Assembly: GCA_009914755.4 (NCBI GenBank)
Contig: CP086569.2
Coordinates: 17,920,001 to 17,984,000, forward strand
Direction: 5' to 3'
DNA: 64,000 nt
DNA from: the human T2T-CHM13v2.0 reference genome, Homo sapiens
The notes below the pieces were generated by a model. The model saw only the letters and a list, made by a program, of their open reading frames with translations. It was not told where the DNA came from and ran no database searches. The first letter of the stretch is position 1. Each line of letters starts with the position of its first letter. The translations under genes were made by a program, and so were the position numbers. Positions 12,487 through 13,565 of this stretch are shown one piece after another.

Positions 12487-12951
12487 AGTGGGCCACCCTT
12501 TGATACAGCAGTCCCGCTACTGGGTATCTTCCTAGAGGAAAACAAGTCATTATTCAAAAAAGATACTTGCACACACACTATTATAGTTGCATAATTAACA
12601 ATAGCAAAATTGTGTATCCAACCCAAATGCCCATCAATCAACAAGTGGATAAAGAAACTGGAATATATATATTCCACTATATATATATATATATATATTC
12701 CACTATATATATATATATATATATTCCACTATATATATATATATATATTCCACTATATATAAATATATATATTCCACTAGTGGAATATATTTATATATAT
12801 ATAGTGGAATATATATATATAGTGGAATATATATATATAGTGGAATATATATATATATAGTGGAATATATATATTCCAGTTTCTTTATCCATATATATAT
12901 AAAATAGTCTCCAATCTCATCCAGGTCACTGCAAATGGTGTTAATTCATTC

Positions 12952-12988
<37 letters not shown>

Positions 12989-13565
12989 GTGGAATATATA
13001 TATACATACTATATATAGTGGAATATATATATATATACTGTATATAGTGGAATATATATATATACTGTATATAGTGGAACATATATATACTATAAATATA
13101 GTGGAATATATATATACACACACTATATATATATACACTATATATATATACACTATATATATACACTATATATATATACACTATATATATATACACTATA
13201 TATATAGTGGAATACTATGTAGCATAAAAAGGAATGAATTAACACCATTTGCAGTGACCTGGATGAGATTGGAGACTATTATTTTTAAGTGATGTGACTC
13301 AGAAATGGAAAACCAAACATCTTATGTTCTCACTGGTATATGGGAGCTAAACTATGAGGACACAAAGGTATAAGAATGATCCAGTGGGCTTTGGGGATTT
13401 GTGGGGAAGAGTGGGAGGGGGCAAGGGATAATAGACTGCAAATATCGTGTAGTGTATATCGCTTGTGAGATGTGAGCATCAAAATCTCACAGATCACTAC
13501 TAAAGAACTTACTCATGTAACCAAAAGCCACCTGTACCCCAGTAACTTATGGAAAAAAATTTTAA
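12487..13565 (+). mobile_element. Direct 3' segment of the same L1 (ORF2 C-terminus, 3' UTR, weak A-tail) carrying a large internal AT-rich palindromic expansion
   Basis: TGATACAGCAGTCCCGCTACTGGGTATCTTCCTAGAGGAAAACAAGTCATTATTC ... CAACCCAAATGCCCATCAATCAACAAGTGGATAAAGAAACTGGAATATATATATTCCACTAT on the plus strand. It resumes at 13205 with AGTGGAATACTATGTAGCATAAAAAGGAATGAATTAACACCATTTGCAGTGACCTGGATGAGATTGGAGAC ... and ends near 13560 on an A-rich tail. Junction with the inverted segment is at about 12486/12487. Confidence 0.7.
12640..13210. repeat. Palindromic AT-rich complex repeat: (TA)n with TATTCCACTAT units and their reverse complements, plus an inverted duplication of the flanking L1 3'-UTR sequence
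   Basis: Five units ATATATATATATTCCACTAT at 12661-12778, a palindrome centre CCACTAGTGG near 12778, and four reverse-complement units AGTGGAATATATATATAT at 12779-12875. An inverted copy of GGAATGAATTAACACCATTTGCAGTGACCTGGATGAGATTGGAGACTATT lies at 12876-12955 with the direct copy at 13228-13282. (CT)n at 12951-12970. Further (TA)n AGTGGAATATATATATAC and (TATATATACAC)n units fill 12975-13200. Confidence 0.8.

What the first reader, a model, noticed from the sequence alone, without database searches (positions are those of the whole stretch)
12640..13210. Palindromic AT-rich repeat (PATRR)-like structure inside an L1 3' end
About 570 bp are made of (TA)n runs punctuated by TATTCCACTAT units in direct orientation at 12661-12778 and in inverted orientation (AGTGGAATATATAT) at 12779-12875. 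There is a perfect local palindrome centre, ATTCCACTAGTGGAAT. A roughly 55-80-bp piece of flanking L1 3' UTR is also present as an inverted pair, minus at 12876-12955 and plus at 13228-13282. GGATAAAGAAACTGGA is present plus at 12646 and minus at 12875. A (CT)n tract and (TATATATACAC)n units fill the rest. Long AT-rich palindromes are established cruciform formers. They cause replication stalling, deletions and recurrent translocations, as at the 11q23 and 22q11 PATRRs, and they are notoriously hard to sequence and assemble and are copy-number variable. This one appears to have grown from the L1 sequence GGAATACTACTCAGCC by repeated inverted duplication and TA slippage.
Basis: seen in the sequence. 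Interest (0 to 1): 0.5.

Follow-up and report, generated by a model that had tools for sequence, protein, structure and literature searches.

The report
AT-rich quasi-palindrome born inside an L1
A 246-bp AT-rich near-palindrome, with a second inverted repeat and an AT-rich minisatellite beside it, has grown out of a 20-base TA-rich motif in the coding tail of an old L1 retrotransposon; it looks like the palindromes that break chromosomes but fails several of their criteria, and is best read as one more ordinary hairpin-prone repeat.

Summary
Positions 12646-12891 form a spacer-less, 83% AT near-palindrome centred at 12778|12779. Its arms are 133 and 113 nt; 111 of 113 aligned bases match, and three gaps hold 20 nt of TA-length difference. 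Each arm ends in the unique L1 16-mer TGGATAAAGAAACTGG. A 51-nt perfect inverted copy of L1 sequence (12903-12953 against 13230-13280), a (CT)9 tract and a 238-bp AT-rich minisatellite complete the locus. As single-stranded DNA, 12640-12900 (the palindrome) folds at -88 kcal/mol (z -18.8) and the whole locus at -191 kcal/mol (z -26).

Four other L1 copies in the window carry 20 nt where this element has 551 nt. The site lies in the ORF2 coding tail, about 45 codons before the stop, not in the 3' UTR. The inverted pieces are 100% identical to this L1, which is only 68-72% identical to the other copies, so they were copied locally. Short-range template switching or fold-back synthesis at TA tracts is the likely route, with TA slippage afterwards.

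It has the general architecture of a palindromic AT-rich repeat (PATRR). It fails on AT content (83% against over 90%), on central GC (6 against 1-3 in the central 20 bp) and on arm symmetry. Polymorphism and breakage could not be tested. I rate it a new member of a known kind, of low to moderate interest.

The parts
11984..12497 (-). Context: an L1 ORF2 reverse-transcriptase fragment in inverted orientation. It is the 5'-inverted part of the same L1 insertion and is unrelated to the palindrome.
   Evidence: The minus-strand translation hits Pfam RVT_1 at E 1.8e-11. A candidate target-site duplication, TTTAAA..TTGTATGT, lies at 11970-11983 and 13561-13577.
12497..12661 (+). Sense-oriented L1 ORF2 C-terminal region up to ...[11 protein letters not shown]. 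It ends in the 16-mer TGGATAAAGAAACTGG (12646-12661).
   Evidence: Translation. BLASTP against the intact ORF2 tail at 47637-48497, E 2e-23. Alignment with four other L1 copies.
12646..12778 (.). Left arm of the palindrome (133 nt): L1 16-mer, CTGGAA(TA)n, then five TTCCAC(TA)n units. The units are inverted relative to the L1.
   Evidence: (I3, I5, I6).
12779..12891 (.). Right arm of the palindrome (113 nt): five GTGGAA(TA)n units in native orientation, then TATATATTCCAG and the inverted L1 16-mer CCAGTTTCTTTATCCA.
   Evidence: 111 of 113 aligned bases are identical to the reverse complement of the left arm. Three gaps of 6, 8 and 6 nt lie in TA runs. Both arms have the same unit architecture. 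The hairpin energy is -87.9 kcal/mol.
12892..12902 (.). TA-run junction between the inverted 16-mer and the inverted ORF2 piece. It is either filler or microhomology.
   Evidence: Seen directly in the sequence.
12903..12953 (-). Inverted copy (B') of L1 ORF2 sequence 13230-13280.
   Evidence: 51/51 identical to the reverse complement of 13230-13280. The 58-nt version is 95% complementary (I1).
12952..12969 (+). (CT)9 tract at the switch from minus to plus orientation.
   Evidence: Tandem Repeats Finder: period 2, 9 copies, 100% match.
12969..13110 (+). AT-rich minisatellite: a (TA)9-10 run, then five GTGGAATA(TA)nCATAC/TACTG units with a 27-29-nt period, in native L1 orientation.
   Evidence: (D3). 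The units are 95-100% complementary to left-arm units over 35-40 nt (I8, I10, I11, I20).
13111..13206 (+). Six TATATACAC(TA)n units with a 13-15-nt period, amplified from the L1 motif CATATACAC.
   Evidence: (D4). The ancestral motif is seen.
13207..13560 (+). The L1 resumes: GTGGAATACTATG..., the ORF2 tail (the template B lies at 13230-13280), the 3' UTR and the poly(A).

Best explanation
This is a non-functional mutational by-product inside a dead L1.

The L1 is an old, 5'-inverted element. Its ORF2 tail originally read GGATAAAGAAA-ATGTGGTACATATACACCAT-GGAATACTATG. The 20-nt TA-rich stretch, which carries two similar GTGG(T/A)A motifs, first expanded by replication slippage. That produced tandem GTGGAA(TA)n and TATACAC(TA)n units.

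Short-range template switches then inserted two inverted segments. (TA)n is its own reverse complement, so it supplies microhomology in either orientation.
- Insert 1 (about 12669-12778) is the reverse complement of the adjacent unit array (12779-12868). It created a palindrome.
- Insert 2 (12869-12969) begins exactly in register with that palindrome. It copies CTGGAA and the L1 16-mer backwards, as expected if the nascent strand folded on the new palindrome and extended its own stem. It then jumps about 350 nt away to copy 51 nt of ORF2 backwards, and returns through a (CT)9 junction.
- Later TA slippage made the arms unequal: unit lengths of 24, 24, 26 and 26 nt in one arm against 24, 18, 18 and 20 nt in the other.

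Consequence. In single-stranded DNA, such as a lagging-strand template, the locus can fold into a roughly 113-bp bulged hairpin plus a 51-bp stem with a 276-nt loop. It is therefore expected to be slippage-prone, length-variable and hard to sequence. Its propensity to extrude a cruciform from duplex DNA should be well below that of the canonical translocation palindromes.

Shown: the anatomy, the local origin, the ancestral state and the fold energies. Inferred: the order and mechanism of the events, and any behaviour in vivo.
For: - Ancestral state: four other L1 copies in the window have 20 nt between GGATAAAGAAA and GGAATACTATG, where this element has 551 nt (12658-13208).
- Local origin: the host L1 is only 68-72% identical to the other copies. 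Its inverted pieces match it at 51/51 and 47/47.
- Orientation map: the native-oriented pieces (16-mer, CTGGAA, 12779-12868, 12969-13206, GTGGAATACTATG, ORF2 tail) form a complete collinear L1 path. Everything else is reverse-complement copy of sequence within about 400 nt, plus TA and CT filler.
- Both arms share one architecture: five units, a TTT/AAA variant in the innermost spacer, and CTGGAA only next to the 16-mer. The unit array therefore predates the duplication, and only the TA-run lengths differ.
- Fold energies and z-scores.
- Template switching that creates perfect nearby inverted repeats, enriched in AT-rich sequence, is documented in great-ape genomes (PMC7954356).
- The L1 identity rests on an RVT_1 hit and BLASTP to an intact ORF2 tail.
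Against: - Only one haplotype of one species was available. No outgroup polarises the events, so the order, the number of events and the mechanism (template switch, inversion between TA tracts, or break repair) are not established.
- The origin of (CT)9 is unexplained.
- The order A' then B' is permuted relative to a simple inverted copy, and needs an extra jump.
- The fold energies are for naked single strands. No data bear on behaviour in vivo.
- If the sequence derives from a bacterial clone, the true allele may be longer and more symmetric. The PATRR8 reference entry was shown to be a cloning deletion (PMC4255720).
Confidence: 0.72

Rival explanations
1. It is a true PATRR-class hotspot. 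On this reading it is a polymorphic palindrome whose long symmetric alleles extrude cruciforms in the germline and mediate recurrent deletions or translocations, as at 11q23, 22q11, 17q11 and 8q24.
For: It meets the three architectural features listed for translocation PATRRs. It is a palindrome of a few hundred bp without a spacer, it has an AT-rich interior with less AT-rich ends, and it has a flanking AT-rich region with a 27-29-bp direct repeat (PMC4255720). At 246 bp it lies between PATRR17 (187 bp) and PATRR8 (300-350 bp). The reference allele could be a shortened version of longer symmetric alleles.
Against: AT content is 83%, not over 90%. The central 20 bp hold 6 G/C, against 1-3 in all PATRRs (PMC1851657). 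The 20-nt arm asymmetry raises the computed extrusion cost to +62.6 kcal/mol, against +11.8 for a perfect version. PATRR17-long showed negligible extrusion, and small central imperfections abolished it in PATRR22-quasi (PMC1851657). The sequence motifs appear in no searched paper. No breakpoint or polymorphism data exist for this locus.
Confidence: 0.1
2. It is just an ordinary TA-rich simple repeat. On this reading the apparent palindromy follows trivially from (TA)n being self-complementary.
For: The region is 80% AT with many TA runs, and Tandem Repeats Finder reports period-2 arrays over it. A pure (TA)123 folds about as well (-86.6 kcal/mol) as the palindrome.
Against: Non-TA sequence is also inverted: a 16-mer and a 51-mer of unique L1 sequence match perfectly. 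Five TTCCAC units are mirrored by five GTGGAA units in the same order, with the same spacer variant. Pure TA runs are at most 21 nt, so the long hairpin depends on the higher-order inverted duplication.
Confidence: 0.08
3. It is an assembly, cloning or sequencing artefact, such as a fold-back chimera, or a clone rearranged in E. coli.
For: AT-rich palindromes are notoriously rearranged in clones and hard to sequence. The database PATRR8 entry is such an artefact (PMC4255720). No independent assembly of this locus could be retrieved.
Against: Fold-back artefacts give perfect palindromes. Here the arms have diverged by three TA-length indels and by the position of a TTT variant, as expected of an evolved sequence. 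The structure is embedded collinearly in an L1 with both flanks intact.
Confidence: 0.07
4. It is a hairpin-RNA or miRNA precursor locus, since many TA-rich miRNAs derive from such palindromes.
For: There are sub-threshold Rfam matches centred on the palindrome to TA-rich hairpin miRNA families: mir-1277 at 36.5 bits, mir-5014 at 34.2 bits and mir-3149 at 29.8 bits.
Against: All matches are far below gathering scores (81-101 bits). They occur on both strands equally, as expected from composition plus palindromy. The gathering-threshold scan of the whole window found no hits. No expression data are available.
Confidence: 0.03

Closest known systems
Palindromic AT-rich repeats (PATRR8, PATRR11, PATRR17, PATRR22)
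   Same: A spacer-less palindrome of a few hundred bp, with an AT-rich interior and less AT-rich ends. An adjacent AT-rich region holds a direct repeat of about 28 bp, as beside PATRR8. The predicted hairpin is strong: -88 kcal/mol, between PATRR8-SS at -33 and PATRR8-S at -122 to -126.
   Different: AT content is 83%, against 90-99%. The central 20 bp hold 6 G/C, against 1-3. The arms are 133 and 113 nt with three bulges. It is built from a punctuated GTGGAA(TA)n unit derived from L1. It has no known translocation, polymorphism or cruciform data.
Short-range template-switch mutations (four-point model; quasi-palindrome to palindrome conversion)
   Same: The inverted fragments are exact reverse complements of sequence within a few hundred nt. 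The junctions lie in AT-rich sequence. The product is a perfect nearby inverted repeat.
   Different: The inserts are larger (about 110 and about 100 nt) and compound, with at least two or three switches. The events catalogued in that work exclude repeat-masked, low-complexity templates such as this one. No ancestor sequence is available to polarise the change.
Structure-forming (TA)n / (AT)n repeats (FRA16D Flex1 (AT)34; expanded TA repeats broken in WRN-depleted MSI cells)
   Same: Alternating TA tracts that can form hairpins and cruciforms and stall forks.
   Different: Pure TA runs here are at most about 10 repeats (21 nt). Hairpin potential comes from the higher-order inverted duplication, not from one long uninterrupted TA tract.
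L1 5' inversion by twin priming
   Same: The host L1 does carry an inverted 5' segment (11984-12497), flanked by a candidate target-site duplication.
   Different: Twin priming inverts a different, non-overlapping part of the L1 at the time of insertion and creates no inverted repeat. The palindrome was made later from this copy's own diverged sequence.

Membership tests
PATRR (translocation-associated palindromic AT-rich repeat) | Nearly perfect palindrome, several hundred bp, no spacer | tested here: inconclusive
   246 bp with a 0-nt spacer. 111 of 113 aligned bases match, but 20 nt of the longer arm are unpaired, so identity is 83% when gaps are counted. PATRR alleles range from 92.7% to 100% (PMC4255720).
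PATRR (translocation-associated palindromic AT-rich repeat) | Extreme AT richness (over 90%; 97-99% in PATRR8) | tested here: not met
   83% AT over 12646-12891 and 86% over the interior. Criteria from PMC4940405 and PMC4255720.
PATRR (translocation-associated palindromic AT-rich repeat) | AT-rich centre (1-3 G/C in the central 20 bp) | tested here: not met
   The central 20 bp, ATATTCCACTAGTGGAATAT, hold 6 G/C. Criterion from PMC1851657.
PATRR (translocation-associated palindromic AT-rich repeat) | Relatively non-AT-rich ends, and another AT-rich region flanking | tested here: met
   The ends are TGGATAAAGAAACTGG. The flanking block 12969-13206 is 84.5% AT. Feature list from PMC4255720.
PATRR (translocation-associated palindromic AT-rich repeat) | Size polymorphism in the population, and translocation breakpoints at the centre | not testable with these tools
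   No independent assemblies were found. No population or breakpoint data are accessible.
LINE-1 (host element) | ORF2 reverse-transcriptase domain and conserved ORF2 C-terminal tail, poly(A), target-site duplication | tested here: met
   RVT_1 at E 1.8e-11 on the minus strand. BLASTP to an intact ORF2 tail at E 2e-23. Alignment to four other L1 copies. An A-rich tail at about 13553-13570 and a candidate TSD. Pfam found nothing on the short C-terminal remnant itself.
Short-range template-switch product | Inserted fragment is the reverse complement of nearby sequence, and the ancestral state lacks it | tested here: inconclusive
   The first half is met: 51/51, 47/47 and 111/113. The ancestral state is inferred only from paralogous L1 copies, not from an orthologous outgroup.
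Known RNA families (miRNA hairpins) | Score at or above the Rfam gathering threshold | tested here: not met
   The best match is 36.5 bits against a gathering score of 81. No gathering-level hit exists in the window.

The most novel reading that the evidence does not exclude
The locus is an uncatalogued PATRR-type site. On this reading the sequenced allele is a decayed or asymmetric version, and longer symmetric alleles segregate in the population and act as a deletion or translocation hotspot. More generally, the TA-rich ORF2-tail motif GTGGTACATATACACCATGGAATAC, present in many L1 copies, would be a recurrent seed from which such palindromes arise genome-wide.
Probability: 0.07. Interest if true: 0.55.

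Novelty: new member of a known kind. Interest (0 to 1): 0.2.

Why it matters
If the locus is length-variable or fragile, it would add a site to the short list of human AT-rich palindromes that break chromosomes. It would also show concretely how such palindromes are born from a transposon's own TA-rich motif by slippage plus template switching. As it stands, it is a clean worked example of nested local inverted duplication, and a likely trouble spot for sequencing, assembly and variant calling. Hundreds of AT-rich palindromes longer than 200 bp are already catalogued in the human reference (PMC7680136), so it does not change what is known.

Tried and rejected
- Independent copies of the locus. 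Exact look-up of seven ORF products that span or flank the repeat found none in the protein collection. Exact DNA scans used the unique junction TTCCAGTTTCTTTATCCATATATA and the unique ORF2 piece. Metagenome contigs, genome contigs and viral contigs all gave no match. Length polymorphism, mis-assembly and orthologues could therefore not be examined.
- Literature search for the sequence motifs returned only an unrelated cloning paper. No paper was found describing a PATRR inside an L1 (titles and abstracts only).
- Pfam on the short ORF2 C-terminal remnant found nothing. The L1 identity was established instead from RVT_1, paralogue alignment and BLASTP.
- I checked three alternative origin models by hand against the orientation map:
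  - a single inverted copy of the whole segment;
  - inversion of the middle of a tandem duplication by recombination between TA tracts;
  - an ODIRA-type inverted triplication (PMC10766186).
  Each was rejected as a sufficient single-event explanation. None reproduces the observed order: 16-mer, inverted units, native units, inverted 16-mer, inverted ORF2 piece, native units.
- HSat II/III (GGAAT)n was considered because of the GGAAT core. It was rejected because the motif occurs once per 18-29-nt unit, not as tandem pentamers.
- PATRR8 identity was considered because of its flanking 28-bp repeat. It was rejected on AT content (97-99% against 83%).

Full report
**What is there.**
I read 12000-13900 and ran repeat, tandem-repeat and motif searches. 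Together they give the following map on the plus strand.

- 12646-12661: L1 sequence ending in TGGATAAAGAAACTGG.
- Next comes AATATATATA, then five TTCCACTA(TA)n units starting at 12672, 12698, 12724, 12748 and 12772.
- The exact centre is at 12778|12779, inside ATTCCACTAGTGGAAT. That 16-mer is unique in the window.
- Five TAGTGGAA(TA)n units start at 12778, 12802, 12820, 12838 and 12858.
- 12870-12891: TATATTCCAG followed by TTTCTTTATCCA; the last 16 nt (12876-12891) are the inverted 16-mer CCAGTTTCTTTATCCA.
- 12892-12902: a short TA run.
- 12903-12953: a perfect inverted copy of 13230-13280.
- 12952-12969: (CT)9.
- 12969-13206: a 238-bp, 84.5% AT block. It holds a (TA)9-10 run, five GTGGAATA... 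units with a 27-29-nt period, and six TATACAC(TA)n units with a 13-15-nt period.
- From 13207: GTGGAATACTATG and the rest of the L1.

**Check of the observation.**
The two arms of the palindrome are 133 and 113 nt. In a gapped alignment of the left arm with the reverse complement of the right arm, 111 of 113 bases are identical. The remaining 20 nt are three gaps of 6, 8 and 6 nt, all inside TA runs. The outer 47 nt of each arm are 100% complementary (I3).

The structure is far beyond chance:
- As single-stranded DNA, 12640-12900 folds at -88.4 kcal/mol. Two hundred dinucleotide-preserving shuffles give -31.2 +/- 3.1 (z -18.8).
- 12640-13290 folds at -190.6 kcal/mol against -69.8 +/- 4.6 (z -26.3). 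It forms two independent stems: the palindrome, and a 51-bp stem that closes a 276-nt loop.
- In a sliding 260-nt fold across the whole 64-kb window (mean -22.9, sd 8.1), the only windows with comparable energy are about 70% GC. There low energy follows from composition.

**Host element.**
The flanks translate to the L1 ORF2 tail...[11 protein letters not shown] on the left and ...IKRNELTPFAVTWMRLETI... on the right. BLASTP of this remnant against an intact ORF2 C-terminal piece in the same window (47637-48497, minus strand) gives E 2e-23. It places the repeat between the WIKKM and YTMEYY residues, about 45 codons before the ORF2 stop. The duplicated 51-mer encodes ORF2 residues.

Immediately upstream, 11984-12497 is ORF2 reverse-transcriptase sequence on the minus strand (RVT_1, E 1.8e-11). 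A candidate target-site duplication, TTTAAA..TTGTATGT, brackets 11984-13560. The host is thus a 5'-inverted L1, which resembles twin priming. That inversion involves a different part of the element and has nothing to do with the palindrome.

**Ancestral state and origin.**
Four other L1 copies in the window cover the same site. All carry about 20 nt, ATGTGGTACATATACACCAT, between GGATAAAGAAA and GGAATACTATG. This element has 551 nt there (12658-13208).

The amplified units are recognisable derivatives of that motif. TATACAC comes from CATATACAC, and GTGGAATA comes from CATGGAATA. The single CTGGAA next to each 16-mer comes from the first GTGGTA.

The host L1 is only 68-72% identical to the other copies. 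Its inverted pieces nevertheless match it at 51/51 and 47/47. They were therefore copied locally from this very element, long after it inserted.

**Orientation logic.**
The native-oriented pieces, taken in order, form a complete collinear L1 path: the 16-mer, CTGGAA, the units at 12779-12868, the block at 12969-13206, GTGGAATACTATG and the ORF2 tail. Two inverted inserts interrupt that path.
- Insert 1 (about 12669-12778) is the reverse complement of the adjacent units.
- Insert 2 (12869-12969) is, in order: the reverse complement of CTGGAA plus the 16-mer, then (TA)5, then the reverse complement of the ORF2 51-mer, then (CT)9.

Both arms share the same five-unit architecture. This includes a TTT/AAA variant in the innermost spacer. 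The tandem array therefore predates the duplication. Only the TA-run lengths differ between the arms: 24, 24, 26 and 26 nt against 24, 18, 18 and 20 nt.

**Most likely mechanism (inference).**
The first step was slippage expansion of the TA-rich motif. A short-range template switch then created the unit palindrome.

In a later replication the nascent strand folded back on that palindrome and extended its own stem through CTGGAA and the 16-mer. It then jumped to the ORF2 piece about 350 nt away and returned to the normal template.

All junctions lie in TA tracts, or at the CT/TA boundary. (TA)n is self-complementary, so it supplies microhomology in either orientation. Template switches that generate perfect nearby inverted repeats, with enrichment in AT-rich sequence, are documented in great-ape genomes (PMC7954356).

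I checked three single-event alternatives by hand against the map: a plain inverted copy, an inversion within a tandem duplication, and an ODIRA-type inverted triplication (PMC10766186). None reproduces the observed order. The origin of (CT)9 remains unexplained.

**Comparison with PATRRs.**
The published common features are these: a nearly perfect palindrome of several hundred bp, an AT-rich centre with less AT-rich ends, and a flanking AT-rich region (PMC4255720). PATRR11 and PATRR22 are over 90% AT with no spacer (PMC4940405). All have only 1-3 G/C in the central 20 bp (PMC1851657).

| Feature | Canonical PATRRs | This locus |
|---|---|---|
| Length | 187-600 bp | 246 bp |
| Spacer | none | none |
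| Less AT-rich ends | yes | yes |
| Flanking AT-rich region | yes | yes, with a 27-29-bp direct repeat (PATRR8 has a 28-bp one) |
| AT content | over 90%; 97-99% in PATRR8 | 83% |
| G/C in central 20 bp | 1-3 | 6 |
| Arm symmetry | 92.7-100% identity | arms differ by 20 nt |

With ViennaRNA DNA parameters, the sum of the two hairpins minus the duplex gives these costs:
- the real sequence: +62.6 kcal/mol;
- an idealised perfect palindrome built from either arm: +11.8;
- (TA)123: +9.4;
- mononucleotide shuffles: about +216.

PATRR17-long (187 bp) showed negligible cruciform extrusion, and small central imperfections abolished extrusion in PATRR22-quasi (PMC1851657). I therefore expect hairpin formation on single-stranded templates, but poor cruciform extrusion for this allele.

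Pure TA runs are at most 21 nt. That is much shorter than the Flex1 (AT)34 tract used in fragile-site models.

The second inverted pair has 51-bp arms and a 276-nt spacer. I expect it to contribute little in duplex DNA. This rests on established knowledge that instability of inverted repeats falls steeply as the spacer lengthens.

**What could not be tested.**
Seven exact-sequence look-ups of ORF products found nothing. Five exact DNA scans of public contig collections also found nothing. There is thus no second assembly, no orthologue and no population data. Polymorphism, mis-assembly and breakpoint clustering remain open.

The arms have diverged by indels, which argues against a fold-back sequencing artefact. 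A clone-derived deletion cannot be excluded, since the database PATRR8 entry is one (PMC4255720).

Rfam finds no family at gathering level. It finds only sub-threshold, strand-symmetric matches to TA-rich miRNA hairpins. There is therefore no support for an RNA gene.

**Verdict.**

The human reference already holds 718 gapless palindromes longer than 200 bp, and the longest are mostly AT repeats (PMC7680136). This is a new member of a known kind. Its interest is low to moderate, mainly as a clear example of how an AT-rich palindrome is built from a transposon's own motif.

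Noticed in passing
window 28910-34206 (+), 56415-57940 (+), 62831-63910 (opposite orientation): Large arrays of a 29-bp minisatellite with 58-bp and roughly 141-bp higher-order periods. The consensus is about GAGAAACAGGAAGTGTGTCCTGCACAGAG. 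Together they cover about 8 kb and produce long spurious Cys/His/Arg-rich ORFs on both strands. Arrays in opposite orientation lie about 5 kb and about 29 kb apart. The consensus was not found in any searched paper.
   Followed up: partly
window 11984-13560, with 11970-11983 and 13561-13577: The host L1 has an inverted 5' segment: the ORF2 reverse-transcriptase region on the minus strand at 11984-12497, joined at about 12497 to the sense 3' part. A candidate target-site duplication, TTTAAA..TTGTATGT, flanks the whole. About 1.1 kb of ORF2 is missing between the two segments, which seems large for simple twin priming (from memory).
   Followed up: partly
window 47637-52556 (-): A near full-length young L1. 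ORF1 is intact at 338 aa (51540-52556). ORF2 is split into three long pieces of 487, 391 and 286 aa. It resembles the L1PA/L1HS class and points to a human or ape genome.
   Followed up: no
window 29600-30000: A 69-72% GC block with CpG observed/expected of 0.56-0.61, embedded in the minisatellite region. It has the lowest fold energies in the window. The sequence ending ...GGGATTGTAAACACACCAATCAGCACCCTGTG resembles, from memory only, an ERV9/LTR12-type LTR rather than a gene promoter. This was not verified.
   Followed up: no
window 12719-12832 and 13066-13158: Sub-threshold Rfam matches, equal on both strands, to TA-rich hairpin miRNA families (mir-1277, mir-5014, mir-3149, mir-4536, mir-297/466, mir-568). 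Scores are 21-37 bits against gathering scores of 75-101. The cause is composition plus palindromy, not membership.
   Followed up: yes
window 2264-2288: The longest uninterrupted TA run in the window (25 nt) lies here, outside the finding.
   Followed up: no
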